Assembly (NCBI RefSeq): GCF_018977255.1 | Contig: NW_024704743.1 | Coordinates: 372,001 to 436,000, forward strand | Length of the DNA stretch: 64,000 nt | Reading direction: 5' to 3' | DNA from: Callorhinchus milii | Lineage: Eukaryota | Shown: positions 1-55,400 of the stretch, in pieces | Layout of the letters: the number at the start of each line of letters is the position of its first letter | Position numbering within the stretch: the first letter of the stretch is position 1 | Position numbers and translations under genes: made by a program | Notes under the pieces: generated by a model | The model's database searches: none | Seen by the model: the letters and a program-made list of their open reading frames with translations, nothing else | Told to the model about the DNA's origin: nothing

Positions 1-148
1 AGCGCTTAACAGTGGTGAATCTTAACGCTGAGCCGAGGCGACTCAATCCACGACTGGTCGTGGGACGCTGCTGTGTGAAATTATCTGCCGCGTTTCGCCC
101 ACAAGATACCCTGGGGAGCGAGGGAGCGTCGGAGCTGACGGGCGTTAC

Positions 149-473
149 CAATATCCGGGCTGACGTCCTCCAGAATGTCCTCCCGCTGGATTCTCTTGAG
201 CAGCTGCAGCAGGAGACCCACAGAGGAGGGCTTCTTCACCTCCCAGTCCTGGAGCAGTTTTCCGGTGGGATTTTCCTGGCTTTCGTAGCTCCTGATCTCC
301 AGGTACTCGAAGCCCATCTCCTCGGCCAGGCCTGTCCAGTCGGTGGCCACCACGCTCCTGGGGTTCAGGTACAAGGCCAGCCTCCTCCTGACGTGGAAGT
401 TCAGGGCCACCATGGGGACGCTGAAGTAATCAACGTCCTCCTTCGCCTCGTCCACCTTGGTGCAAGCGGACAT
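149..473 (-). CDS. MYD88: MyD88 first coding exon (death domain); gene continues beyond the left edge
   Basis: Translation MSACTK...VPMVALNFHVRRRLALYLNPRSVVATDWTGLAEEMGFEYLEIRSYESQENPTGKLLQDW...REDILEDVSPDI matches the MyD88 death domain (human ALNMRVRRRLSLFLN..AADWTALAEEMDFEYLEIR). Phase-1 GT donor at 148-147; AG acceptor at 480-479 just upstream of the ATG. Confidence 0.95.
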
Positions 474-659
474 CCTGTCTGCGACGAGAACTAACAGGGC
501 GAAACGACGGGCAAGGTTCCTTACTCCACACGCCTCGGTTTAGCTGGCGGTAAGTGGAAACCCGCCTTGTTAGTCGATCGTCCGATCGCTTTAATGACCC
601 CCTTAAAAAATATATAATAATAATAATCGGGTCACTCAATCCACGACTGTTTGTGGGTC

Positions 660-7699: not shown

Positions 7700-23630
<15,931 letters not shown>

Positions 23631-28486: not shown

Positions 28487-28511
28487 NNNNNNNNNNNNNN
28501 NNNNNNNNNNN
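28487..28511. other. Assembly gap (25 N), probably hiding the 3' exons of CRHR2
   Basis: N run 1.15 kb downstream (minus strand) of the last visible CRHR2 exon. Confidence 0.95.
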
Positions 28512-29666: not shown

Positions 29667-29773
29667 CTCAAGCACAGGAACAGCGTGAAAGCAATGACGA
29701 GCGCTCCGATGGAAATGCAGTGCCCCAGGTAGTTGATGATCAAAACGACCTTGTAGTGGACCTGGTATTTACC
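29667..29773 (-). CDS. CRHR2: CRHR2 TM1 exon
   Basis: [36 protein letters not shown]; donor GTGAGT. Confidence 0.95.
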
Positions 29774-35000: not shown

Positions 35001-38000
35001 TAAGGACGATTTCTAATAATAATAATAATCCTCGCATTTGATATAGCGCTTTTCACGTCGGGAGGACGTCCCAAAGCGCTTCACAGAACCCACTGCAAAG
35101 TGAATTGACTGTATATTTGTGTGCGCAGCAATGTCCCACAAACAGTCGTGGGTTGAAAATGACCAATTTATTATTGTTTTTGGTTTTGATTCTGAGGCAG
35201 CGTCAAGGATTAATTAAGATTATAAAAATGAATTAGCTTCTGGGCCCGCGCGGCTCTCTCTCTGCCTCGCGTATAATACGTGCTAAATCCTGTTCGGCCT
35301 CCCCGCTGTGTAGTCCTCCCAGACAAAGGCGAAATAATCGGGCGTGAAGGGCACAGTGTAAATGCTAATTGGAGTCCCCGCGGTTGTTAGAGCGCTCGCC
35401 TCTCGAGCGAGAGGACCCGGGTTCGATTCACGGGCGGGGAGAAACCTTAGGGAAGTTTCCTTCCTCCGCACACGCACACACCCACGCGCGCACACACGCG
35501 CACGCACACACACACGCGCGCGCACACACACATACGCCTCTGTTTACCCGGCGGTAAGTAGGAACCCGGTTGTTAAGTCGATTGGCGGATCGCTTTTTTC
35601 CGGGGGTAACAATCCCTTCCAAAAAAAAATCACTCCATTCACGGCCGCGTGTTGGGACGTCGCTGTGCGCAATCGGCTGCCGCGTTCCGCCCCCAAAACG
35701 TGCAGTCGATTCACTCGACAGCGTATCCTGCGAAGGGCTTTGAGATGTCTCAACAATGTGATAAGGCGCTGCGTCAAATGCAGGGATTATTATTATTATT
35801 ATTATTAAGTTGTTGCATTTTTACACCTGGAAATCGCCACCAAGGGACCGATTGACTGTCAGACACCCGGCTGACCCCCCCCTCCGCCCCCCACCCACCC
35901 CAACGCCCCCGCCCCCACCCTCAAAATCTCTGCCCGAGCTGCAGTGACTGACCTTCTCTTCCAGAATAGGTTCGCATTGAGAGTAGTTGATTCTGGACGC
36001 CCAGGTCCCATTTTCTACGCATTCCCTGTAGACGCTTCCTGCAAACACACCACACGGGAGGTTCAGCCACTTCACCGCAGAAGAAAGGTTTGCGACCCGC
36101 ACCCGGGGAAAAATAATGGGGTTATTCCTCCCGATATCGCAAAAGATAATGATAATTTGATCACGCGCCTTATCGTGCCGGTGAGAAGTCTCAAAGCGCT
36201 TTGCAGAATACACTGTGAAGTGACTGTGTACGGTGTTTGCAGCCAATAGGGCACACACATCAATTCGGTCCCTCGGTGGTGGATCCAGGGGCCAAATTAT
36301 TATCGTTATCTTTTACTGAAGCGATTATTACCTCCGCCAAACGACTTAACAACCGGGTTGCCGCTTCCTGCCCGGCAAACAGAGTAAGGAAAACTTGCCC
36401 GAGGTTTTGCCCAGCCGGAGACGTCGATGTGAGGCTCCATCCGGGCCGGTTCGGGTGGGCGTTAAAAGCTCTCTCCCCATTGGGAAAGGGAAAGGAGCAA
36501 CCCACAAAACAGATGTCAAGAGTCTTTTTTTTTTACCTGGGGGGGGTGGAAATCGTTGGGTCAGGAGAGAAAAGCGTTCTCCTTGAACACTCCGTAACGC
36601 CCACCTGATCAGGCAGGCGGGGGCTTCAGCTTAACGTCTCATCCGAGGGAAAGCGCCTCCGTTAATGGTAATTCTCCATCCGAGACAAGACGGCTTGTCT
36701 CGATGGCAACTCCGCACCTGGAGACATTAGTCTTACATGAAAGACGCTGTATTAAAAAGCAGGTTGTCTTTTTTTTTTTTTACCGTTGCCGTCCCCTCGT
36801 TCTTCTTTCTTTCTTTCTTTCTTTCCAAGCGGATTGCTCAACGAGTTGAAAGAAATCAACAACAGATGGTCCCACGCTCTCGTTCCCGACAGGAATGGGC
36901 GAGGGTGTGTGAGGGGCACGTGGGGGGGGGGGGGGGGTGGGTGGTGCTGGGGGTAGCCGGGGAAATGATATCAATCCGTACTTTTGGTACGGCGCCTAAT
37001 CACGTTGCGAGATCGTCCCGGAGCGATTCGCAGGGCACCGGAACCGGGCGTTTTGTGGGCAAACCCGGCGGCCGATTCCTACGCGGCAATATCTCACGAA
37101 CAGCCGTGAGTGAGAGAGGAAACTCATCATAATAATAATAATAATAATAATACGTGGATTCGGTATAGCGCCTAACAAGTTTAGACGTCTCAAAGCGCTT
37201 CACAGGATATAATAATAATAATAATAATAATCCTTGCATTTGATATAGCACCTTATCACTTCTTCGAGACGTCTCAAAGCGCTTCACGGGACACACTGTC
37301 AAGTGTAGCGACCGTATGTTTTGTGGGTGAAACGCAAGTGCAAAGATTATTATTAGTAGTAGTAGTAGCAGTAGTATTATTCGGACAAGCTGAGGTGTGA
37401 CGCCTCAACAGCTCATCATGACCCGGAGCTGGAGACGGCACTTTATTTTCTCGCTGCAATTTTCGTCCTTAAATGTCACGGTTAAGTGCCACCGTTCCAT
37501 TACAACCCGGGAGCTCAGTGGGACCCTGAATGTGCCGTTCCTCGGAGGACCCTGAGCCTGGGGCGGTGAAACAGCTTCGCCCCGGCTCGGTTCATCACGT
37601 TCGCGCGGCCCGAAAGCTGAGCGCTGCTGGGCTTTCGGAGGTGCCGGCCTTCGGAAAGAGACGTCGAAACAGTCTGCCCGTACGGGTGGGTGTTATTGGC
37701 GGCGCGCGGGGGGGGGGGGGGGGTGGGGAGGTGGTGAGGTGCGTTGGGTGGGGGGTGGGGGGTAACTGTAACGGCTAAAACCGCGAAGCTTGCGGCCGAG
37801 AGCACTGACTTCCAACGAAACCCATTTAAAGATAAAGGTGATGGGTCCGACTGGGGTGAGGGAGGGCAAAGCTTCCCGTATAATTGCCAGTTAAGGTCCA
37901 CCTGGCTCTCAGCGATAGCGCAGTGAGCAGCCGCAGAGGGCCGGTACACCGGGAGCTGAGAGTCGCAGTGCACATCAACGACCGTTGGAGCCGTCAACGC

Positions 38001-41000
38001 GCACACACACACACACACACTCTCGCACGCGCACACACACACTCGCACGCGCGCGCGCGCACACACCCGCACAGCCTGCGAACAAGAACCATGCCTTGCG
38101 CGCCCACGCGCTAGCGCACAGACGGGGATTAGAGCCTTATTAAGCTGCTCGGGTCCTCACAGTCTCATTACACCCCTCCTCAGCCAACCAGCCTGACAGT
38201 CACCCACAGCCCTCTCTCGACGCCGGCTAATTACCAGGCACCGAAATCCAAAAAAATAATCCTCGGAGCTGCTCCGCAAGTCGGGAGGATGACTTCGAGG
38301 CCCTTCGCGACACGAGCGAATTATTATTTATCTGCTAATCAATCCACGGCCGCTGTTGGCATTCGGCCGCGCGGTCAGTGCGCTTTGCGGCCCGTTCTCC
38401 GAAGGGCTTTGAGGCGTCTCAACGACGCTACGACGTCAAATGCAAGGAATGTTATTATTATCATCGTTATTATGATTGCTACAGATGTCCTCCCGATGCG
38501 AAAGGCGCTGTGCAAACATCTTGTATTGTGTTGGCGAGAGAGAGTTGCCAACTGTGCCAGACTGAAAAGGAGAAGGAACAAAAAAACAAACGGGGGCTGG
38601 AAATTATGCCTTCAGATAAGGGGAATGTGAAATCCTGCCAGAAACCGCTCAGGCACTGAACTATTCTAATAATAATAATAATTAAGAATAATAATAATAA
38701 TAATAATCCTGGCATTTGATTTCACGGACGTCTCAAAAGTGCTTCATACTTCACAGAGTGAAGCACTTTGAGATGTTTAACGTCTCTTCCTTGGGAGGGT
38801 GGAGGGGGTGGGGTGGGGGGGTGGGGGGTGGGGGTTAGGAAGGTGCCTTCGAAGAGGAGGGTCTTGAGATGGGCCTCGAAGGAGGCGAGGGAGGGAGCCC
38901 GGGCTCCCGTCCTGTTGGCGTTCCAAACGCAGGTGAGGGCGGAGAGTCTGAAGGTCCGACCTTCGATGGTGGAGGTGTGGGCAGCGGAGGAGGCCAGAGC
39001 CCGCCGGGCGGAGGGAGCGGACGGGTCGGTAGGGGATCTGGGTGACACGTAACCCCCGGTGACCGCGCTTTGGGGGGCAAATGTGGAAGCCGATGTGTTG
39101 CGTTCTCTCTGCCCGTGTGCGTAGGGGTGTGTGTGGTGTGTGTGTGTGTAGGGGTGTGTGTGGGGTGTGTGTGTGTGTGTGTGCATTTCATAGAGCATCG
39201 TCAGATAATAATAGGCTGAGAATAATCGTTGCGGTCCACCTCCAAACACTGCTGATCGGGTGCTTCAAACCCACAGACCAGTCACTGGGAAGGGGGGGGT
39301 AAGGAATTCCCCCCCCCCCCCCCACCCCCCGACCTCTCCCTGAGCTCCCCCTTCGGAACATATCCCCCAACGCCATTCTTCCCTCCCAAGTCAGCCACCG
39401 AAGCTTCGCAAGGCTCTCAGCCCCATCTGCCGCAGCTCTTCCCGCCTCTCTTAAGCTGCTCCGTGTGCGTCTCTTTGTATTTTTTTCGCCCCCATCCTCT
39501 TCGCAGTTTGCAATGACACTTCGCATCGCGCCTCTCGCGGCCAAAGCCCTCGAACCGCTTCACAGCAATTACCGTCGAGTGCAAACACGTGTCGCTGCTA
39601 CCGTCGGACTGCAAAGAGGTGTCACTCTTCGTATCACGTCTTCGAGACGTCTCAAAGCCCTTCACAAAACCCGGGGTCTCTCTCTCTCTCTCTCTCTCTC
39701 GTTGCCCCCATCACTTCCCGCACTGTCTCCTACTCCCGCTCCTCCCCCTGGTACACCACCCACCTCCGCTCACTGAAATGCCAGGTGCGGGCTGCTGAAC
39801 GCACCTGTGTCAAATCTGGCCTAACGGTCCACCGACAAATCTGGCTGGACCTCCTCAAAATTTACCGCTCCACTCTAGCCTCGGCCAAGTCGTCCTTCTA
39901 CTCCAGGATAATCCTGGAGGCGAAGAACAACCCCAGGCTACTGTTTTCCACCACATCCCGACTCCTCCGTCCCCCCCGCCACCCCGCGCAGGTCATCTCC
40001 TCCAACCTTCACTGCGAGGAGATGCTGGATTTCCTTGAATCCAAGATCAAGGGAATCCGCTCCGCGGTCACTTCCCCTCCAACTTCCACCCACCACCCAC
40101 CCCTTCCCTCCCACACTCCGACTCCTACCCATCCTCCCCTACACACCTTCGTACCCGTTTCCCCACCCTCTGTCACTGAACTCATCCTATCCCTAAAACC
40201 AACCACCTGCTCCCTTGACCCCATCCCCACTCCACTCCTTATCTCCCAGCTCCATTTTCTTGCCCCACACATCACTGACATCATAAACCTGTCCCTCTCC
40301 TCTGGCTCTGTCCCCATTCCATTAAAAACTGCCATCATCACGCCCACCCTGAAAAAACCCTCCCTTGATGCGTCGCAGCTATCAAGCTACCGGCCCATCT
40401 CCAACCTCCCCTTTCTCTCCAAGGTCTTGGAAAGAGTTGTCGCCTCCCAACTGCGCTCTTTCCTCTCCACCCATTCTCTTTTTGAACCCCTTCAGTCAGG
40501 TTTCCGTGCTGCTCATAGCACAGAAACTGCCCTGGTCAAGGTCACCAATGATATCCTGACCATCTGTGACCAGGGCTCCCTCTGTCTCCTCGTCCTCCTC
40601 GACCTATCGGCAGCATTCGATACGGTCGACCACGCTATCCTACTCCACCGCTTGTCCTCCCACCTCAACCTTCAAGGCACTGTCCTTGAATGGTTTAGCT
40701 CTTACCTTTCCCACCGTCTTCACTTCGTCTCAACGAATGGCTTCTCCTCCACCCCCCGTACTGTCTCATGTGGTGTCCCTCAGGGCTCTGTCCTCGGTCC
40801 CCTCCTCTTCACCCTCTATATGCTCCCCCTCGGTGACATCATCCGCAAACATGGGGTTAACTTCCACATGTATGCGGATGACACCCAACTCTACCTTTCC
40901 TCCTCTACTCTCAACTCCACGACCACCGATGTCCTGACAGCCTGCCTGTCCGACATCGAGTCCTGGACGAGAGACAACTTTCTTCAGCTCAACGTGCGAA

Positions 41001-43649
41001 AAACCGAGGCCCTCCTGATTGGCTCACGTCAGCGCCTCCGCACCTCAGGCGCTGACACCATCAGCATCCAAGGCTGCACTCTCCACCTCTCAAAGCCAGT
41101 CAGGAACCTCGGCGTTTTGTTCGACCCTGAGCTGTCCTTTCTCCCTCACATCCGCACCACAACTGGCACCGCCTTCCATCACCTCCGGAATATCGCCAGA
41201 TTACGGCACTACCTCACCCCTCACGCTGCTGAAACCCTGGTTCACGCCTTTGTCACCTCAAGGCTGGACTATGGGAACTCTCTCCTCGCCGGCCTTCCCG
41301 CCACCTCCCTCCACAAGCTGCAGGTCATTCAGAACTCTGCAGCTCGTGTACTGTCCCGCACCAGGCTTCGGGACCACATCACTCCCACCCTCGCTCGCCT
41401 CCACTGGCTCCCCATCCCCCAGAGGATTGATTTCAAGATCCTCATCCTCACCTACAAGGCCATTCACGGCCTTGCTCCCTCCTACCTCTCCAACCTACTA
41501 TCCCCCTACCTACCTGCCCGTACCCTCCGTTCCTCTGGCTCCGGTCTGCTCCACGTCCCCCGCCCCAACCGCCCTACTATCGGTGGTCGGGCCTTCAGCC
41601 TCTCAGCCCCGAGGCTCTGGAACTCCATCCCCCAGTGCCTTCGCCTTGCTTCCTCCCTTTCCTCCTTCAAGGCCGGTCTCAAAACCTTTCTCTTTGACCG
41701 TGCCTTCAGCTCCCCTCTCGACTCTCTTCCTCCTCCTCGCTCCCTCCCTTCCCTCCCCTCACCCTGACCATTTCCCCCCTCCTCTCTCCCTCCCTTCCCT
41801 CCCCTCACCCTGACCATTTCCCCCCTGCTCGGGTCATGACCCAACTGTGCAGCGCCTTGGGACGTCCTCCTGACGTGAAAGGCGCTCTATAAATGGAATC
41901 TTGTTGTTGTTGTTGTTGTTGTTTGCAGAGCAGAGAGGGACACAGACTGGGACTGGGGCTGGAGGGGTGGGAGGGTGTGGGGGGGGGTGGGGGGGTGCGG
42001 ACAGGCACAGAGTGGGGAGAGGGACCGCGCGGGTCGGAAATGGGCCACGATGACTTCTTCAGCCGTGGGTCGCCGTTCGAGTGTTCGAGTTCCGCGCCTC
42101 TGAATCCTTTGTGTGCAAAGCCATTGCCTGGGGGCGTTGGGTGGGGGTGGGGGTGGGGTGGGTCGGGGGCGCTAGGGGGGTGGGGGGGGGCGGGGGGGAG
42201 TGAGAGAGTCCCTGTCTCTCCCGGGCGTGTGTTCCGTTTGCTATGAAAGGTCTCTCTCTCTCTCTCTCTGTTCAGTGCTGCCTTTAGGGTATTGCACGGC
42301 TTCATGTGACACTCAGGTGAAGCGTAGTTCACACACGGACAGAGGCATCAATAGAGCCTTTAGAGGGGGCAGAGGGTGGGGGGGGGTGGGAGTGGGGGGG
42401 GCACTGCGGAGAGAGGGGGAGGAGGGGGAGGGGGTGGAGATAGGGGGCATCCGAATCACCGGCTCCCAATCACCGAACGGATCGGTTTCAAGATCCTCTC
42501 ACTGCGTTTTCAAACCCCTTCAATCCCTCACACCTCCCCCTCCCTCCCTCCCCGACCTGCTTACCCCCCCCCCAACCCCCTCCCACCCATCACTGCCTCC
42601 GCTCGCCTGACCGCAGCCTCCCTCGTCCCCCCCTCCGCTCCACCACCACCAGCGGCCGTGACTTCAGCCGTTACCCCCCGAAACTCTGGAACTCTCTCCC
42701 TCGATCCCCCGCCTCGTGAAGCCACGACCTGATGATAATGAGCTTGAGCCAGACTGACACACACACGCACACGCACGCACACTCACACGCACACGCACAC
42801 TCACACGCGCACACGCGTATCACCCCCCCCCCCCCCCCCACAAATAAACAGTCACTTCACTGTGCAGCAAACTCCGCAGATGCTTCAAGGCAATGCCTCA
42901 AATTAGTCGGCGATGATTAACTGGGAATCATTACGAAGTTGGACACGGATCGCGGTTCCATGTCTCATCCACAAGATCTTCTCTCGGAAATGGGGTGTGT
43001 TTCCCCCCCTCCCTCGCTCCCTCCCTCCCCCCCTTCCTCGTTCCCTCCCCCCCTCCCTCCCCCCTCCCCCCCTCCCCCCCTCTTGAGGTGAGAGTGTGTG
43101 AGATGGAGAACATGCTAAGACGACAGATGTCGATAGCTTTTAAGGTCCTAACCCACTGAGCTTCGCTCCGTCAGCGCATTCATTACTGGAGAGTGAGCGA
43201 TGAGGACGGCTGAGCAGCACCGCCACTCTCACTGCTGCTGTGCTCCTCAAGGGCTGCACACACACACCCACACACACACCCACACACACACCCACACACA
43301 CACCCACACACACACCCACACACACACACCCACACACACACCACACACACACACCCACACACACACACACACACACCCACACACACACACCCACACACAC
43401 ACCCACACACACCCACACACACACCCCACACCCACACACACCCCCACCCACACCCACACACACACACCCACACACACACACACACACACCCACACACACA
43501 CACCCACACACACACCCACACACACACACACACACCTACACACACACACACACACCCACACACACACCCACACACACACACACACCCACCCACACACACA
43601 CACCCACACACACACCCCCCACACACACACACACACACACCCACACACA

Positions 43650-43684
<35 letters not shown>

Positions 43685-46600
43685 ACACACCCACACACAC
43701 ACCCCCACACACACACACACACACATTATTATTATTATTGTTACCCAGAGACACCCCACCTCCTCGGATCAGACCCTGAGATAGAGAACATGTGGGGGAA
43801 TGATGGCACTCAGGGGGGGACCGGGAGGCTCACAGTGTGCAACCAGACTGAACCCCCAAAATAGAGAAAGCCAATAATAATAATAACACATAACAACAAC
43901 AATAACAATACTGGCATTTGACTCAGCGCCTGATTCAGGTCTTCGAGACGTCTCAAAGCGCTTCGCGGGACGCACCGCAACGTGTAGTGACTGTGTGCTT
44001 CGCGGGCCGAATGCGGCAGCCAATTGCGCCCGGCGGCACATCGCACGTCTCAATCCGGAGGCCGTTGTCTTTTTTTTTCACAGGGTCCCCTCGGGCAGCA
44101 AAATCAGCCGCTGACTCACGCCCTCAACTCGCCCACTTGCCTCGTTCCCCCACACCCCCTCCCCCTCCCCCCCCACCCCCGCCCCGGCAGCGCCCCTCTC
44201 ACGTGAGCGCAGGGAGAAAGCGAGGGTTAGAGCGCTCTGCCGTGCGTTCCGCAAAGCGCTTTGCGCGGCCTCTCGGAGAGACGTGACGAGGCGGTGTGTC
44301 CGACGCGAGGATCGTTGGCGCTGTCGTTGCCGCGCGGGCAGACTGGGGTTGGCGGGGTTTACCGGTGGGGGGGGGGGGGGGGGATTTCGCGGAGAGTGAG
44401 TGCTTACTGGTGGTGTTGTACTTAATGCCGTTGAAGGTTTCGGGGCAGGAACGTGAGGCGACCTGTCCTGCCCGCGTCCGGGGCCAACACGTGCCGATCT
44501 GGTCCGTGGTGGCGTTGCAATAAACACCTACACTTAGAGGTGGGGGGAGAGAGAGGGGGGGAGAGAGAAGGGGGGAGAGTGAGAGAGAGATGGAGAAGAG
44601 AGAGAGGGGGGGAGAGAGAGGGGGGAGAGAGAGAAAGGGGGGAGAGAGAGAGGGGGGAGAGAGAGGGGGGAGAGAGAGAGAGAGGGGGGGAGAGAGAGAG
44701 AGGGGGGGGAGAGAGAGAGAGAGGGGGGGAGGGAGAGAGGGGTGGGGAGAGGGGTGAGAGAGAGAGAGAGAGGGGGGGATGGAGAGAGAGAAAGGGGGAG
44801 AGAACGAGAGGAGAGAGAGAGCGAAGGGATAGAGAGCGGGAAGGGGAAGAGAGGGGGATAGGGAATAGAGAGGGGGAGAGCACAAGAGGGGGAGAGAACG
44901 AGAGGAGGAGAGATGGGAGAGAGAGAGAGAGATAGAGGGGGGGGAGAGGGGAGAGGGGAGAGAGAGAGAGGGAGAGTTAGGAACATAAGAGCATAAAAAA
45001 GAAGATAATGTCCATCTAATTCTCCTTCCACTTTCCTGACCGTCGCCCGCACCCGTGTCCCGAACTCCCTCTGTACTGTATCCCATCGTATTATTTCCTA
45101 AAACTATCTGATCCGCGTTTGAAAGGGATCAACACTGAGGAGAGTGGGTGGGGAGAGAGAGGGGAGAGAAGGGAAGGGGAGAGAGGGCGGAGGGAGAGAG
45201 GGGAGAGGGAGAGGGGAGAGAAGAGAAGGGGAGAGAGAGCGGAGGGAGAGAGGGGAGAGGGAGAGGGGAGAGAAGAGAAGGAGGGAGGGAGAGAGGGGGG
45301 AGAGGGAGAGGGGAGAGAAGAGAAGGGGAGAGAGGGAGGAGGGAGAGAGGAGAGGGAGAGGGGAGAGGGAGAGAAGAGAAGGGGAGAGAGGGCGGAGGGA
45401 GAGGGGAGAGAAGAGAAGGGGAGAGAGAGCGGAGGGAGAGAGGGGGAGAGAGAGGGGAGAGAAGAGAAGGGGAGAGAGAGCGGAGGGAGAGAGGGAGAGA
45501 AGAAAAGGGGAGAGAGGGCGGAGGGAGAGAGGGGAGAGAAGAGAAGGGGAGAGAGGGCGGAGGGAGAGAGGGAGAGAAGAGAAGGGGAGAGAGGGCGGAG
45601 GGAGAGGGGGGAGAGGGAGAGGGGAGAGAAGAGAAGGGGAGAGAGAGTGAGGGAGGGGGAGAGAGAGGGGAGAGGGAGACGGGAGAGAAGAGAAGGGGAG
45701 AGAGGGCGGAGGGAGAGAGGGAGAGAGAGGGGAGAGGAGAAGAGAAGGGGAGAGAAGTGGGGGGGGGGAAGGAGAGAGGGGAGAGAGAGAGGGAGAGAGA
45801 GGGAGTGAGAGAGGGGGAAAGCGGAAGGAGAGCGAGACAGAGGAGGGGGAGAGTGGGGGGGAGAGGGGGAGAGAGATGGGGTTAATCCACGGGATATGAC
45901 AAATTCATATCGGGTCAATTTATTTTGCCCTTTCTTCGATGCAATTATTTCAGCCCCAGCGAAGAGAGAGGGAGAGAGACACAGAGAGAGAGAGAGAGAT
46001 AGGAGGGAGAGAGAGGCGGAGAGGGAGAGAGACAGAGAGGGAGAGAGACAGAGAAGGAGAGAGACACAGAGAGAGAGAGAGAGACACACACACAGACAGA
46101 GAGACTGATGGAGAGAGAGACACACAGAGAGACACAGACAGAGAGACTGATGGAGAGAGAGAGAGACACAGACAGAGAGAGAGAGACGGACAGAGAGAGA
46201 CTGATGGAGAGAGAGAGACACAGACAGAGAGAGAGAGAGAGAGACACAGACAGAGAGAGACTGGTGGAGAGAGAGAGAGACACAGACAGAGAGAGAGAGA
46301 GAGAGACACAGACAGAGAGAGACTGATGGAGAGAGAGACACACAGAGAGAGACTGATGGAGAGAGAGAGACACAGACAGAAAGAGAGAGACACAGACAGA
46401 GAGAGACTGATGGAGAGAGAGAGAGAAAGACACAGACAGAGAGAGAGAGACATAGACAGAGAAACTGATGGAGAGAGAGACACAGACAGAGAAACTGATG
46501 GAGAGAGAGACACAGAGAGACACAGACAGAGAGAGACTGATGGAGAGAGAGAGACACAGACAGAAAGAGAGAGACACAGAGAGAGACTGATGGAGAGACA

Positions 46601-46947
46601 CAGACAGAGAGAGACTGATGGAGAGAGACAGACAGACAGAGAGAGAGAGAGAGAGACACACAGACAGAGAGAGAGAGAGAGAGACACACAGACAGAGAGA
46701 GACTGATGGAGAGAGACACACAGACAGAGAGAGAGAGAGAGAGAGAGACACAGACAGAGAGAGACTGATGGAGAGACACAGACAGAGAGAGAGAGAGAGA
46801 GAGAGACACCGACAGGGTGTGATTCTCACCAGAGAGATCAAACTGAGCGGGAATGTCAGACGGATAGAAACTGTCCTGGAAAAGGTCGAAGAGGCTGCAG
46901 TTGGGATCGAACTCGTCAATTATAATCTGGAAGATGTCGGGGTCCAT
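29667..46947 (-). CDS. CRHR2: Corticotropin-releasing hormone receptor 2, alpha-type isoform, 5' part (ECD plus TM1); partial
   Basis: Join (minus) 46947-46830, 44527-44408, 36038-35953, 29773-29667 gives [125 protein letters not shown] introns, phases consistent. Confidence 0.93.
33800..35015 (+). mobile_element. DeuSINE-like element split by a CAC/CAT expansion
   Basis: Head GACTCTCGACTCCGAGTCAGGGGACCACGGGTTCAAACCCC, core GGATGAAAGATTAAACC..CAGGTGGACGTTAAAGAT..TGGTGTCCTG; the tail resumes after 34880 (GTAAAGCACTTTGAGA). Confidence 0.6.
34128..34882. repeat. (CAC/CAT)n trinucleotide expansion
   Basis: Directly visible. Confidence 0.95.
35371..35806 (+). mobile_element. tRNA-derived SINE, full length (dominant family)
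   Basis: Head, internal CA tract, GCCTCTGTTTACCCGGCGGTAAGTAGGAACCCGG segment, tail and (ATT)n. Confidence 0.88.
35953..36038 (-). CDS. CRHR2: CRHR2 ECD exon
   Basis: [28 protein letters not shown]; 86 nt. Confidence 0.95.
38830..39050 (-). mobile_element. L2-type LINE 3' fragment
   Basis: [36 protein letters not shown]. Confidence 0.75.
39700..41922 (+). mobile_element. 5'-truncated L2-type (CR1 group) LINE with an intact RT reading frame, antisense within a CRHR2 intron
   Basis: Open frame from about 39704 ([11 protein letters not shown]) to stop 41767 with [42 protein letters not shown] and YADDTQ. No endonuclease domain. 3' tail GGGACGTCCTCCTGACGTGAAAGGCGCTCTATAAATG plus (TTG)n. Confidence 0.95.
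39785..41767 (+). CDS. LINE ORF2 reverse transcriptase (N-terminally truncated)
   Basis: 660-aa ORF with the non-LTR RT motifs listed for the LINE. Confidence 0.85.
43257..43724. repeat. (CA)n/(CACC) microsatellite
   Basis: Directly visible. Confidence 0.95.
44408..44527 (-). CDS. CRHR2: CRHR2 first shared ECD exon
   Basis: [39 protein letters not shown]; 120 nt; donor GTAAGC. Confidence 0.95.
45135..46810. repeat. Long GA-rich tandem arrays (GGAGAGAAGAGAAGG.. and GAGACTGATGGAGAGAGAGACACAGACA units)
   Basis: Directly visible; a short unique spacer lies at about 45880-45960. Confidence 0.9.
46830..46947 (-). CDS. CRHR2: CRHR2 alpha-type first exon
   Basis: [39 protein letters not shown] closely resembles amphibian CRF2(a) MDSTIFEIIIDEFDANCSLLDAFQDSF (recalled); phase-1 donor GTGAGA. 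Confidence 0.93.
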
Positions 46948-50440: not shown

Positions 50441-51024
50441 GCAGATAGACTGAGAAAACCGAGATAGAGAGCTGGGAAATGGCATTAGTAATAAAAACAC
50501 AAAACGGGGGAAATTTACAGGACAGGAAGGGTTGAAGCCTTTCCGCCTGTCGTGTGTTATCATTGTCTACTCCCTGTTTGATATATTCCTCCCTTTAGAT
50601 CCGTTAGATCCTCAAGGAACGACCCCACAAACAGCCCTGCACGTGAGCGGCGCGAGCAACGGTCCCAGTCCGCAGTCTGTTACTGCGGAGAGTTATCGCG
50701 TCAACCCCTTGTGGATGGTTCGTGTTAATGGGACGGTTTCCAACAAATTATCTACAGCTCAATTAAGCCGAACCTGACTCCAGCAGAAGCCGCAAACGGA
50801 AAAGTCCTGCGCTGTTAATAAATCCTTGCACTCGATGTACGCGCCGGTAGAGACGTCTCGAAGCGCTTCACGGAAATATACCGTCAAGTGGGGTGACCGT
50901 GGGGGCAAACCGCCGTGGACGGAGGTCTCCAAACCGAGCTGAGAACTCCACGCCTCCCACCTACGCGTGGAGAGCCCGGAGATAGAGTGTCGGAAGGGTT
51001 TAGCTGTTAACCTGTGGTATTTAC

Positions 51025-51103
51025 CTGTGATGTTGGGGATGGAGAGTGCCTCACAATCTGCCCGCAAGGCCGTGGGGAGGCACGACAGATCAGCAGGAGC
51101 CAA
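51025..51103 (-). CDS. CRHR2: Putative CRHR2 beta-type exon 1b
   Basis: TTTGACAG|LAPADLSCLPTALRADCEALSIPNIT-G|GTAAAT; 79 nt, phase 0 to 1; DCEALS..NITG parallels CRHR1 QHCESLS..NISG. Confidence 0.75.
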
Positions 51104-51837
51104 CTGTCAAATAAGATCGAAAGAATCTGTTAAATAATCCTAAATATAATGCATAATAACAACAAAGTACAACAACAATAATACTACATTATGACACAGA
51201 ATAAAATCACGATGACGTGGTTAGTTTCAGCACCTTTCAAGTCAAGGGGTTACTGCTTCGGTCACCGGTACGATATCGTAGGAACATATCATCGCGTAAT
51301 CGTAAAACAGAAATTAAATGATAAAAGGATAAAGAATTTATTTTAAAGCATTAAAAATCTGCGACAGCAAAATCGCACAGTTGTAGAAACTGTCGTTGTA
51401 AAACGTTAGGCTGATGATTTATTTAATACGATGAAATACAACATCAATAAAACATAATACTTTTTTTGCTTCAGAGGATGTGCTGTCACCGGCTAACGCC
51501 ACATAAATATAATTAGGAATACAATAATCCTTCCACGTGCTATAGCGCCTTATCATGTTGTTAAGTCGCTTCGCAGAATAGACTGCAAAGTGAATTGACT
51601 GTGTATTTTGTGGGCGAAACGCGGCAGACAAATTCCACCCAGCGGCGTCCCCACGAACAGCCGTGGATTGAGTGACCAAAGTATTATTATTATTTTTCGG
51701 GGGAGAGACTATTTAGCCCCGGAAAGCGATCCGCCGCCCATCGATTAACAACGGGGTTCCTACATACTGCTGGGCAAACAGAGGCGTGCGTGCGGAGTAA
51801 GGAAACTTGCCCGAGGTTTCGCCCCGACCCCGAGAGG

Positions 51838-52195
51838 CCGGGAATGTTCTCTTTAGAGCAGAAAATCTTTCTTGACACAGAGAGTTATTACGGTCTGGAA
51901 CGCGCTGCCGGAAAGGGCGATGGAAACAGATTCAATAAGAACTTTCAAAAGGGAATTGGATCGGAAATTAAAAAGGAAAACATCGCAGGGTCTGTGGGGT
52001 AAGAGCGGGGGGTGGAGGGGGGTGGGGGGGAGTGGGACTGATTGGGGTAAGAGTGGGGGGGAGCGGGACTGATTGGGGTAAGAGCGGGGGGGAGTGGGAC
52101 TTCTAGACATCTTTGTTGGTAGCTCTTCCAAAGGGCCCACACGGACAGGAACGTTGGGTCAAATGGCCGCCCCCTGTGCTGCGATGTCCTATGGC
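51838..52195 (+). mobile_element. CR1-type LINE 3' fragment
   Basis: TQRVITVWNALPERAMETDSIRTFKRELDRKL is a CR1 ORF2 C-terminus; a tail with AATGGCC follows. Confidence 0.8.
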
Positions 52196-53004
52196 TCCAT
52201 AGACCTCCCCCCCCCCCCCCACCATTAAACCTGAGAGATCATTAACGCACTTAAAGAGATGGATCCCACCAGGTCGCAAGTAACATCAATAAATCTCCAC
52301 TTTATCTCGAAATAAACCCCAAACGGTTCACGAAAGGCTCATCAACTCCCTTTATCCGTGGAGCCATCAGCGGTTAGAGAGGACCTGGGTTCGATTCCCG
52401 GGCAGGACAGGGCGAAACCTTGGGTAAGTGTCCTTACTCCGCACACACACACCTGATAATAATCCCTCAAGAAACAAAACGGACATTAATAAAAAAAAAT
52501 TGTCCTTTTCCGGGGCCGCCGCTGGGCGCAATTGGCCGCCGCGTTCCGCCCCACCCACACGCAGTCGATTCCCTTCGCGGTGTATTCCGCGAAGCGCTTT
52601 GAGGCGTCTCGAAGACCTGATAAGGCGCTGTATCAAAAGCCAGGATTGTGATGATCGTTTATCGGAGGTTACGGTTTATTTGAATCTCCAGCAAAACTGG
52701 ATCGAGAGACTACGCCCCTCGGGTTTCAGCCCGGAGTGCGGCACTCCCTTCCTGTCGTCAGCCGCGAGAGCCCCGGGATACTGCGCCCCCCCCCCCGGCA
52801 CAGGAACCCGGGGGCTAGAGACCGGCACAGAGAACGCTATACCTGCAATAACTCAAAGCGTCGCCTATTCTCGTCGGGGGGGGGGAAAAAAAGAGGTTTA
52901 GAGAGCCACAAAAGCCCCGAGCGCTCTCGAATTTGGGTCAGGTGTAACTATTTACACACACGCAGTACGGAAGCAGGTCATGGCTGTCTATCGCACTTAA
53001 TGTG

Positions 53005-53412
53005 GGAGTCCTGTAGTTCAGCGGTTAGAGCCCGAGCCCTCGTCCAAGCCACGGGACCCGGGTTCGATTCCCGGGCGGGACTAAACCCGAGGCAAGTTTC
53101 CTCACTCCGCGCACCTCTGTTGGCCCAGCAGTTAAGTAGGAACCCCGGTTGTTAGTCGTTTGGCGGATCGCTTTCCGAAGGAAAATAATACCCTTCGAAA
53201 GAAAAAGAAATAATAATAATTCGGTCACTTCAATCCACGACTGTCCGTGGAGGTGGGGGGGGGGAGAACGCCGCTGTGCGTAATTGGCTGCCCGCGTTTC
53301 GCCCACGAAATATACAGTCACTACGCTTTACAGTGTGTTCTGTGAAGCTTTGAGACGTCTCGAACAGGTGATAGGAAGCCATATCAAATGCAAGGATTAT
53401 TATTATTTATTA
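53005..53412 (+). mobile_element. tRNA-derived SINE, full length (dominant family)
   Basis: Head to (ATT)n tail. Confidence 0.85.
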
Positions 53413-55031
53413 TTGTATGAAATGGAAGGATTATGATTATGATTATGCGGTTCTCAAAAAAAAGCACACACTCTGACAATGCGACCGATTAATAATAATA
53501 ATAGTAATCCTTCCGTTTGATATAGCGCCTTATGACGCCTTCGAGACGTCTCGAAGCTTCACAGAATACGCCTTGAAACGTAAAGGCAAACAGAGCCCTG
53601 CGTGTGGAGTAAGGAAACCTGCCTGAGGTTTCGCCCGGTCCGGGAATCGAACTCGGGTCCTCTCGCTTGCGAGGCCAGGGCTCTAACTGTTGAGATACGG
53701 GACCACAGCGACCCAGACCGTGAGCTTAAAGTCCCCACTGGACCGACTGACCCTCCGGTACAGTAAGTACAGAGAAAAGGGGAAATGGGACTGAGAGAGA
53801 GAGAGAGAGAGACAGAGAGAGCGATGGTCATGATGGTCTGAATGGCCTCCTTCTGCCTTGTAGATCTCCTATGGTTCTTGTTGGAGTGAACCATTGGAGT
53901 TAGCAGTACTGCCCCCCACTGTCTAACATTAGGTACTGCGCCGATACGTCCCCTAGTTCCCCTTATCTCCAAACTCCCTCATCAGGTGGGGGAAAGGTCA
54001 AGGTGGTGGTCACGAAGCTGGCGGGTGGTGGGGCGGAGGGGGGGGTCTGGGCGAGCGCGGGTGGGAGTAAGGTCAGAGAGAGAGAGAGAGAGAGAGACAG
54101 AGACTCCGGGGTGGACTGTGGAGTGCGGTGAGGAAGTCCTGTTGCATCCCGTTATTACGTCACCAAAGCATCAGCCGAGTGCTTGACCAGACGCTCCTGT
54201 GAAGGGCGGTGACTACGAGCTGCGAAGGTGAACGCAGCGGCCAACGTGCGAAGAGCGATGAGTCTCAAGTCCCGACGAGGGGCGGGGGGGGGGGGGGAGG
54301 GGGGGGGCTTGAACCCGCAAACTTCCAGCTCGGAGGCGAGAGCCTCTTTCTTTCTGCGGAGAGAGTTTTTTTTGTGTTCCGATAACACTGGAACGAAAGA
54401 AACCCTCACGTCCTCCCACTTGACTCTCCCCGTAACATCCCTTTGTGAGCGGTTCAGCTGCAAACCGTGCGCAAAAACGCACAGCCACTACACTAAATAC
54501 ACTGTGCGCTTTGTGGGCGAACTTTTTGAAGTGATGACTATCCCTGGAAGAGGTTTGCGGAGTAAGAGGAAACTTGCCCCAACCCTTTGCCTCACCAAGT
54601 TGACCGGACAACTTGCATTTGTACGGCCGCCCTTCCGCACCAAACGACCTCGTGGAGAGCTTTCAAGGCTTCTCTAAAGTTAGAGACAGGTTTCCTGACT
54701 CCTGACCTAACGTATCAACACTTAACGCCTCTCTCGGGGATTTTACAATCTAAATCCCTTCCGCAACAAACGCCACAGGACAGCAAAAGAAAATTGGGTT
54801 TTACATTCCATTATTAATAATAATAATAATAATAATCCTCGCCTTCGATACGACACTTTTATCACGACCTCGAGACGTCTGGAAGCGCTTCACAGAGCGC
54901 GCGGTGAAGTGTAGTGACTGCGCGTTTTAGCGGGGGAAAAAAATTGCCTCGTCTTTTGTGGGGGGGGGGGGGGGGGGAATCTTCAGACCTTCGCCGGTCT
55001 TGATTTGACGGAGAAAAGAAAGCTCACTCAC

Positions 55032-55067
55032 CATCAAAATGCAGATCAACGTCCAGTTTAACATCAT
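55032..55067 (-). CDS. CRHR2: Putative CRHR2 beta-type exon 1a (signal peptide start)
   Basis: GTCGGG-ATG ATG: MMLNWTLICILM|GTGAGT; phase 0, compatible with exon 51103-51025. Confidence 0.65.
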
Positions 55068-55083
55068 CCCGACAGCCTGTGTG

Positions 55084-55117
<34 letters not shown>

Positions 55118-55140
55118 AGTCTCTCTCCCTCTCAGTCTCT

Positions 55141-55177
<37 letters not shown>

Positions 55178-55400
55178 CCGCCCTCTCTCTTTCTCTCCGC
55201 TCGCTCCTTAACAACTTGATCACTCTATGCTTCTCGCCCGCTTGGTGTCCAGCTCAGGTCCAGCCGCACGGGATGAAATGTCAGACGGGAGGAAAGCATC
55301 TCGAACGCACTGCATAACAAAAGTTCCTCCACTCTTCCCACTCTTAATACTCTCCAGTGAGAAAGTCAGCGGGGAGACTGCGTGTGTGTGTGCATCTGGC

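What the first reader, a model, noticed from the sequence alone, without database searches (positions are those of the whole stretch)
51025..55067. Two hidden upstream exons give CRHR2 a signal-peptide, beta-type/CRHR1-like N-terminus in a probable cartilaginous fish
Seen: minus-strand exons 55067-55032 (MMLNWTLICILM, donor GTGAGT) and 51103-51025 (LAPADLSCLPTALRADCEALSIPNIT-G, AG/GT) splice in frame to the shared exon at 44527, bypassing the alpha exon. The product is [54 protein letters not shown]. It supplies a hydrophobic leader, the first ECD cysteine (DCEALS) and an N-x-T sequon before the junction Gly. Established: mammalian CRF2(b) uses two upstream exons and CRHR1 has the same two-exon start (QHCESLSLASNISG); CRF2(b) has usually been described as mammalian, with non-mammals credited with CRF2(a). 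Inference: the alpha/beta dual-promoter architecture may predate the split of jawed vertebrates, with beta being the ancestral CRHR1-like form.
Basis: partly seen in the sequence, partly recalled or inferred. Interest (0 to 1): 0.85.

Follow-up and report, generated by a model that had tools for sequence, protein, structure and literature searches.

The report
Ancient beta form of stress-hormone receptor
An elephant shark gene for the stress-hormone receptor CRHR2 carries, besides its annotated start, two unannotated upstream exons that give the signal-peptide 'beta' form which a review calls young and mammal-only; automatic database models already show that form in rays, fish, frogs and birds, and it looks like the original front end rather than the newer one.

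Summary
Two minus-strand exons (55067-55032, 51103-51025) have canonical splice sites and join in frame to the shared CRHR2 exon at 44527, skipping the alpha exon (46947-46830). The species is Callorhinchus milii; its one CRHR2 record seen uses alpha only. The two exons mirror exons 1-2 of CRHR1 in the same genome (36 nt phase 0; 79 vs 85 nt, phase 0 to 1; shared WTLI, CEALS, NITG). A 1435-nt contig from 1 of 4 putative RNA runs matches exon 2 without differences and leaves the genome at both borders; the exon 1-2 joint was not seen. A profile HMM missed the divergent exon 2, and SignalP could not be run. What remains is polarity: CRHR1 and a lamprey receptor have the beta-like start, the alpha exon is absent from the CRHR1 locus, so beta looks ancestral and alpha derived, against a 2014 review's 'younger, only in mammals'. 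I found no paper saying so in a limited library.

The parts
55032..55067 (-). Beta exon 1, coding part (12 codons, hydrophobic leader, phase-0 donor GTGAGT); homolog of CRHR1 exon 1
   Evidence: Same length and phase as C. milii CRHR1 exon 1 at G000:C23:9507829-9507864, shared WTLI. Best of 7 candidates. Joint to b2 not seen directly.
51025..51103 (-). Beta exon 2 (79 nt, phase 0 to 1): end of leader, first ectodomain Cys (C29 of the joined product), sequon N36, junction Gly; homolog of CRHR1 exon 2
   Evidence: Contig record 1 of run X5 matches 51023-51102 with 0 other letters.
46830..46947 (-). Alpha first exon, coding part (118 nt, phase-1 donor GTGAGA): acidic pseudo-signal-type N-terminus with Cys17 and sequon N16
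   Evidence: Equals the start of P0001. Alpha HMM from 22 non-chimaera proteins scores it 47.6 bits.
44408..44527 (-). First shared exon (hormone receptor domain), accepts both b2 and alpha in phase 1
   Evidence: Pfam HRM on P0001 residues 41-102.
35953..36038 (-). Second shared exon (ectodomain)
29667..29773 (-). Third shared exon (first transmembrane helix); last CRHR2 exon found in the assembly
   Evidence: later exons not found in G000; N gap at 28487-28511.

Best explanation
The elephant shark CRHR2 gene has two alternative starts. An upstream start transcribes b1 and b2, which splice to the shared exon and skip alpha; a second start inside the intron after b2 transcribes the alpha exon, which splices to the same exon. 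The b1+b2 product is CRF2(b): a short hydrophobic leader, most likely a cleavable signal peptide, then the first ectodomain cysteine and a glycosylation site, as in CRHR1. The alpha product is CRF2(a), with an acidic leader of the pseudo-signal type. b1 and b2 are the gene's original exons 1 and 2, inherited from the ancestor of CRHR1 and CRHR2; alpha was gained by CRHR2 alone before cartilaginous and bony vertebrates split, and both were kept. Shown: exons, frames, paralog homology, b2 inside a spliced-looking contig, both forms in database models of other classes. Inferred: two promoters, b1-b2 joint, cleavage, order of origin, and functional difference (by analogy with mammals, where CRF2(b) has a cleavable peptide and oligomerises while CRF2(a) has a pseudo signal peptide, is monomeric and lower at the surface: passages of PMC7226788 and PMC5551434).
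For: (1) Canonical sites, open frame. (2) CRHR1 in the same genome has a 36-nt phase-0 exon 1 and an 85-nt phase-0-to-1 exon 2; b2 vs CRHR1 exon 2 scores 44, p=0.0004 of 5000 shuffles; vs two ray beta tails p=0.0002 and 0.0008; vs alpha leaders p=0.29 and 0.58. (3) Run X5 record 1: 1435 nt, depth 31.6, minus strand, record 104-183 = window 51102-51023, 0 differences; the 2-nt overhang is what a join to the shared exon predicts, since that exon and the intron both begin GT and then differ; 1254 letters follow the exon end and a ray's shared coding part needs 1130; five intron bins have zero depth in X5. (4) 5 of 16 elasmobranch CRHR2 proteins listed are beta-type, 9 alpha-type, 2 N-truncated; 4 of 8 species show both. 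(5) Alpha HMM finds nothing above 5.8 bits in 60 kb of the CRHR1 locus, while the beta HMM hits CRHR1 exon 2 at 25.7 bits. (6) Lamprey CRHR1-like P0205 has a hydrophobic leader, Cys40 and a NITG junction. (7) Best hydrophobic 8-mer 3.32 (Kyte-Doolittle, scale recalled), against 2.0-3.3 in six beta forms, 2.86 in C. milii CRHR1 and 1.5-2.0 in three alpha forms.
Against: The b1-b2 joint is not among the 15 of 254 joints shown, which are repeat-driven; only 1 of 4 runs covers b2; run type is a guess by the tool; the contig match starts at 51102, one base inside the exon, unexplained. The beta HMM does not detect b2 (rank 30 of 1239): the exon has lost the LLExY-type motif. b2 vs slow loris beta p=0.17 and vs wallaby p=0.036. 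The end-anchored shuffle test is lenient: a ray alpha leader also gives p=0.005. The leader has no basic residue, carries a sequon at N4 and extra Cys at 9 and 20. In the tree the CRHR2 clade has only 82/88 support, P0001 fills 43% of columns, and the lamprey row is a long branch at an open fork; only one lamprey receptor cluster was seen. Database isoforms are automatic models, not cloned cDNAs as far as their names show.
Confidence: 0.85

Rival explanations
1. b2 is real and spliced, but its partner first exon is not b1 (another coding or non-coding exon lies upstream), so the leader differs from the reader's.
For: No b1-b2 joint seen; the contig match begins at 51102; bins 55128-55400 have zero depth in 4 of 4 runs. 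Bird and amphibian models show several different leaders joined at the same point of the exon-2 equivalent.
Against: b1 has the length, phase and WTLI motif of CRHR1 exon 1 and tops 7 candidates in 33 kb. The 103 letters before the match fit b1 plus 66 nt of 5' UTR ending in the GA repeat near 55133; the tool skips repeats.
Confidence: 0.07
2. The beta transcript is made, but the chimaera leader is an uncleaved or weak signal, so the protein behaves unlike mammalian CRF2(b); b2 is drifting under relaxed selection.
For: No basic n-region, sequon at N4, extra Cys 9 and 20, acidic residue at 17, divergent b2 missed by the HMM.
Against: Hydrophobic core as strong as in Xenopus, chicken and lamprey leaders; C. 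milii CRHR1 also lacks a basic n-region and has Cys in its leader; frame, Cys, sequon and both splice sites are intact.
Confidence: 0.12
3. Both starts predate the CRHR1/CRHR2 duplication and CRHR1 lost alpha, so alpha is not derived within CRHR2.
For: Only one lamprey cluster was seen and its orthology is unresolved. A ray alpha leader shows weak likeness to the beta leader (p=0.005), which could mean an old duplication.
Against: No alpha-type exon in the CRHR1 locus; alpha-type starts were seen only on proteins named CRHR2 (one beta-type fragment, P0008, is named CRHR1 by its source); the lamprey model is beta-like.
Confidence: 0.1
4. The two exons are chance open frames with splice-like ends in a repeat-rich intron.
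For: HMM miss; exons are short.
Against: Exact-border contig, paralog match in length, phase and motifs, rank 1 of 1257 donor sites.
Confidence: 0.02

Closest known systems
Mammalian CRF2(b) / CRHR2-beta isoform
   Same: Alternative N-terminus on the shared CRHR2 body, hydrophobic leader, first ectodomain Cys and sequon before the junction Gly; mouse tail P0110 aligns with b2 at p=0.0012. Reviews describe alternative first exons (PMC6778379) and a cleavable signal peptide (PMC7226788).
   Different: Shorter (39 residues to the junction Gly; the review gives 61 aa for the mammalian beta segment, counted differently, PMC3957495); lacks the LLxxYC motif; cleavage and tissue pattern untested.
Beta-type CRHR2 models of rays and skate (Pristis XP_051879364.1, Leucoraja XP_055489550.1, Mobula XP_062913700.1, Hypanus XP_059830602.1, Hemitrygon XP_072904767.1)
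   Same: Same gene, same kind of N-terminus, alpha form annotated in 4 of these 5 species; global scores 49 and 56 against the chimaera leader.
   Different: Four residues longer and closer to the vertebrate consensus; automatic models. No such model was seen for C. milii.
CRHR1 exons 1-2 (C. milii XP_007905561.1, G000:C23)
   Same: 36-nt phase-0 exon 1, phase-0-to-1 exon 2, motifs WTLI, CEALS, NITG; best single match to the chimaera leader (score 59).
   Different: Paralog; only one start seen, no alpha-type exon.
CRF2(a) / CRHR2-alpha pseudo-signal-peptide isoform
   Same: Present in this locus as the annotated form (P0001), with an N-x-S sequon beside its Cys as in guinea pig alpha (N16 vs N13).
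   Different: Single acidic exon lying downstream of b2; not homologous to b2 by local alignment (p=0.58).

Membership tests
CRHR2 gene (class B1 GPCR) | Hormone receptor domain and secretin-type 7TM | tested here: met
   Pfam HRM and 7tm_2 above cut-off on P0001; only the first transmembrane exon is in the assembly.
CRHR2 gene (class B1 GPCR) | Groups with CRHR2 rather than CRHR1 | tested here: met
   Tree of 33 rows without variable N-termini: with elasmobranch CRHR2 (88/78) in a CRHR2 clade (82/88), moderate support; a separate CRHR1 gene lies on C23; alpha exon present.
CRF2(b) isoform | Alternative N-terminal exon(s) upstream of the alpha exon, spliced in frame to the first shared exon | tested here: met
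   contig leaves b2 as a join to 44527 predicts, inferred from a 2-nt overhang and length, not read.
CRF2(b) isoform | Sequence homology to beta N-termini of other vertebrates | tested here: met
   Pairwise p<=0.006 for 10 of 12 beta or CRHR1 tails; 0.036 and 0.17 for two mammals. Unanchored HMM negative.
CRF2(b) isoform | Two coding exons joined to each other (two-exon layout in mammals is recalled, not read in a paper here) | tested here: inconclusive
   b1-b2 joint not among joints shown; matches CRHR1 layout.
CRF2(b) isoform | Cleavable signal peptide | not testable with these tools
   No SignalP; hydropathy only.
CRF2(b) isoform | Own promoter and distinct tissue pattern | not testable with these tools
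   Contigs cannot show starts or levels; tissues of runs are not given.
CRF2(b) isoform | Binds urocortins and signals through Gs | not testable with these tools
   Needs expression and assay.

The most novel reading that the evidence does not exclude
The accepted order of CRF2 isoforms is reversed and nobody has said so in print: CRF2(b) is the untouched ancestral start shared with CRHR1 and lamprey receptors, and the pseudo-signal-peptide alpha exon is an insertion into CRHR2 intron 2 in a stem jawed vertebrate, kept beside beta from chimaeras to mammals. This dates the birth of the first-described GPCR pseudo signal peptide and means that work on fish, frog and bird CRHR2 has largely ignored a conserved second isoform. 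I put the biology at about 0.8 and 'not yet published' at about 0.55.
Probability: 0.45. Interest if true: 0.58.

Novelty: new member of a known kind. Interest (0 to 1): 0.42.

Why it matters
It corrects a gene model for a reference cartilaginous fish and contradicts a printed claim that CRF2(b) is evolutionarily younger and found only in mammals (PMC3957495, citing Dautzenberg 2001). With chimaera, rays, teleosts and tetrapods all showing both starts, the alpha/beta switch, which in mammals changes signal-peptide cleavage, oligomerisation and surface level, becomes a jawed-vertebrate feature that can be tested in fish, frog and chicken. It is a revision within a known system, not a new mechanism, and anyone browsing RefSeq isoforms could reach most of it.

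Tried and rejected
Run search: no RNA holder listed for 50900-55400; runs were added by species label. X7, X8 and X9 have zero depth at 51051-51201, which is no evidence of silence. Joint, loose-end and piece tables were filled by repeat-derived contigs (15 of 254, 24 of 1132, 32 of 23160 rows shown), so the b1-b2 joint could not be read; the stretch laid did not include the shared or alpha exon. Unanchored beta HMM missed b2. No full-length C. milii beta protein appeared among 43 hits to the shared exon; it could hide inside another cluster. No true shark beta model was seen: the single shark CRHR2 row (Mustelus X3) is alpha, and its X1/X2 were not retrieved. Gar, bichir and coelacanth were not retrieved; the lungfish row is alpha (X2). 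Search of solved structures with the ray beta protein gave human CRF1 and CRF2 entries only as family confirmation. A whole-protein alignment was not used. Literature: ten searches listed no paper on a non-mammalian beta isoform; five papers asked for were not held, and subscription papers such as Dautzenberg 2001, Catalano 2003 and the CRH-receptor evolution papers were not seen, so absence from print is not established. Earlier-findings look-ups gave nothing on this gene. No folding was run.
Full report
Observation. On the minus strand, b1 (55067-55032, 36 nt) starts with two ATGs and ends at a phase-0 GTGAGT donor; b2 (51103-51025, 79 nt) has an AG acceptor and a phase-1 GTAAAT donor; the shared exon is 44527-44408. 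Joined to the next two shared exons (36038-35953, 29773-29667) the frame stays open for 142 codons. The alpha exon lies between b2 and the shared exon at 46947-46830.

Identity. The alpha path equals the first 143 residues of P0001, a record named CRHR2-like of Callorhinchus milii (XP_042188157.1 / V9LBR3), 207 residues, alpha start, truncated. A tree of 33 receptor rows with the variable N-termini removed places it with elasmobranch CRHR2 (88/78; CRHR2 clade 82/88, not starred; P0001 fills 43% of columns), and the second gene on C23 with CRHR1 (93/97). CRHR2 exons after 29667 were not found anywhere in G000; an N gap sits at 28487-28511.

Is it chance? An unanchored HMM from 29 non-chimaera beta tails missed b2 (rank 30 of 1239, 1.8 bits; shuffled best 4.5-12.3), though it hit CRHR1 exon 2 at 25.7 bits. 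b2 is therefore divergent. A test designed afterwards, scoring the 13 codons before every open Gly|GT site, ranks the b2 donor 1 of 1257 in the window (24.5 vs 15.0) and CRHR1 exon 2 1 of 1224 in its locus. Pairwise local alignments give p<=0.006 for 10 of 12 beta or CRHR1 tails, 0.036 and 0.17 for two mammals, 0.29 and 0.58 for two alpha leaders. For b1, 7 candidate ATG-to-GT phase-0 mini-exons with donor score of 3 bits or more (matrix recalled) exist in 32,897 nt upstream; b1 is first by hydrophobicity, donor score and likeness to ray leaders.

Paralog. C. milii CRHR1 (P0357, XP_007905561.1) starts with a 36-nt phase-0 exon at C23:9507829-9507864 and an 85-nt phase-0-to-1 exon at C23:9514023-9514107. 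These share WTLI, CEALS and NITG with b1 and b2. The 39-residue beta leader scores 59 against it in a global alignment (p=0.0002, the floor), 49 and 56 against two ray beta leaders, 26 against lamprey, -3 against its own alpha; a ray alpha leader scores 15 (p=0.005), which shows the end-anchored test is lenient.

RNA. No run was listed as an RNA holder. Four runs guessed to be RNA were laid on 50900-55400. In X5 one 1435-nt contig (depth 31.6, minus strand) matches 51102-51023 with no difference at record 104-183 and nothing adjoining; five intron bins have zero depth in that run. The two extra bases at the 3' side are expected if the shared exon follows, because it and the intron both begin GT and then differ; 1254 letters follow the exon end, against 1130 needed for a ray's shared coding part; 103 letters precede, enough for b1 plus 66 nt of UTR ending in the GA repeat. 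The b1-b2 joint itself is not among the 15 of 254 joints shown, the match begins one base inside the exon for reasons I could not resolve (a variant base, or how the tool splits ambiguous letters), and 3 of 4 runs do not cover b2.

Leader. SignalP was not available. The best hydrophobic 8-mer (residues 7-14) averages 3.32, against 2.0-3.3 for six beta forms, 2.86 for C. milii CRHR1, 3.29 for lamprey and 1.5-2.0 for three acidic alpha forms. Cys lie at 9, 20, 29, 42, 52, 66; sequons at 4, 36, 43, 76. C29 and N36 match the Cys and sequon of other beta forms. No basic n-region is present, as in C. milii CRHR1. Cleavage is inferred.

Other species. Of 16 elasmobranch CRHR2 proteins listed, 5 are beta-type (Pristis X1, Leucoraja X1, Mobula hypostoma X2, Hypanus, Hemitrygon X1), 9 alpha-type, 2 N-truncated; 5 of 8 species show beta and 4 show both. 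Beta-type models also exist for Denticeps and rainbow trout, Xenopus laevis, toads, axolotl, newts, caecilian, lizards and snakes, turtles, alligator and chicken. Several bird and amphibian models carry different leaders joined at one fixed point, indirect evidence that the second beta exon is a separate exon there too. These are automatic models. No beta model was seen for C. milii.

Polarity. An HMM from 22 alpha leaders scores the window's alpha exon 47.6 bits and nothing above 5.8 bits in 60 kb of the CRHR1 locus. The lamprey receptor P0205 (Lampetra, named CRHR1-like) has a hydrophobic leader, one Cys and a NITG junction, but its place in the tree is an open fork on a long branch. The simplest history: two-exon signal-peptide start in the ancestor, kept by CRHR1 and as CRF2(b); alpha gained in CRHR2 intron 2 before cartilaginous and bony vertebrates split. 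The origin of the alpha exon is unresolved.

Literature. [quoted passage not shown] PMC7226788 and PMC5551434 (passages) give cleavable peptide and oligomers for beta, pseudo signal peptide, monomer and lower surface level for alpha. PMC6778379 (passages) speaks of alternative first exons. PMC12781255, PMC5930453 (passages) list isoforms for humans and rodents only; PMC9353778 and PMC6727040 (passages) treat fish and chicken CRHR2 with no hit for isoform terms; the bioRxiv preprint gave nothing relevant. Ten searches (listings only) showed no paper on non-mammalian beta. The library lacks most subscription journals, five requested papers were not held and no supplements were read, so an earlier report may exist. 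That mammalian beta uses exactly two coding exons is recalled.

Verdict. A real, apparently expressed, unannotated CRF2(b) start in the elephant shark: a new member of a known isoform class that automatic annotation already shows in rays and other non-mammals. The part worth a specialist's attention is the reversal of the printed order of origin. Interest 0.42.

Noticed in passing
window 28487-28511 and downstream of 29667: CRHR2 exons after the first transmembrane exon were not found in G000. The database protein P0001 carries one further exon and a low-complexity tail with no match on C2, and stops at 207 residues. The 1435-nt contig in X5 is long enough to hold the whole coding sequence.
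   Followed up: partly
G000:C23:9514273-9514347 (L002 about 526-600): Partial tandem copy of CRHR1 exon 3 with its own AG acceptor, 166 nt after exon 2, with Arg in place of a conserved Cys; UniRef model P0343 uses it. Real duplication or assembly artefact not resolved.
   Followed up: partly
P0186, P0342, P0343, P0344: Four UniRef models of C. milii CRHR1 start with intron-derived sequence; only P0357 has the true exon 1.
   Followed up: partly
window 81-539 (-) and about 8000-22500 (+): Neighbours: a death-domain exon that looks like MYD88 and a multi-exon protein kinase that looks like MAP3K2/3 (Pfam Death and Pkinase; gene names from my reading of the translations).
   Followed up: partly
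window 39455-41767 (+): A 770-codon open frame that looks like a LINE reverse transcriptase, in the intron between the first and second shared exons (label recalled, not tested).
   Followed up: no
P0047 (Lepidothrix X1): This bird model's leader begins with the same five residues as b1 read from its second Met; probably coincidence, since other birds use a different first exon.
   Followed up: no
P0135, P0137 (Mobula X1): Ray alpha models with five extra residues at the alpha/shared-exon junction, suggesting an alternative splice site.
   Followed up: no
window 51500-53800: The b1-b2 intron holds several short interspersed repeats that draw thousands of contigs in all four runs.
   Followed up: no
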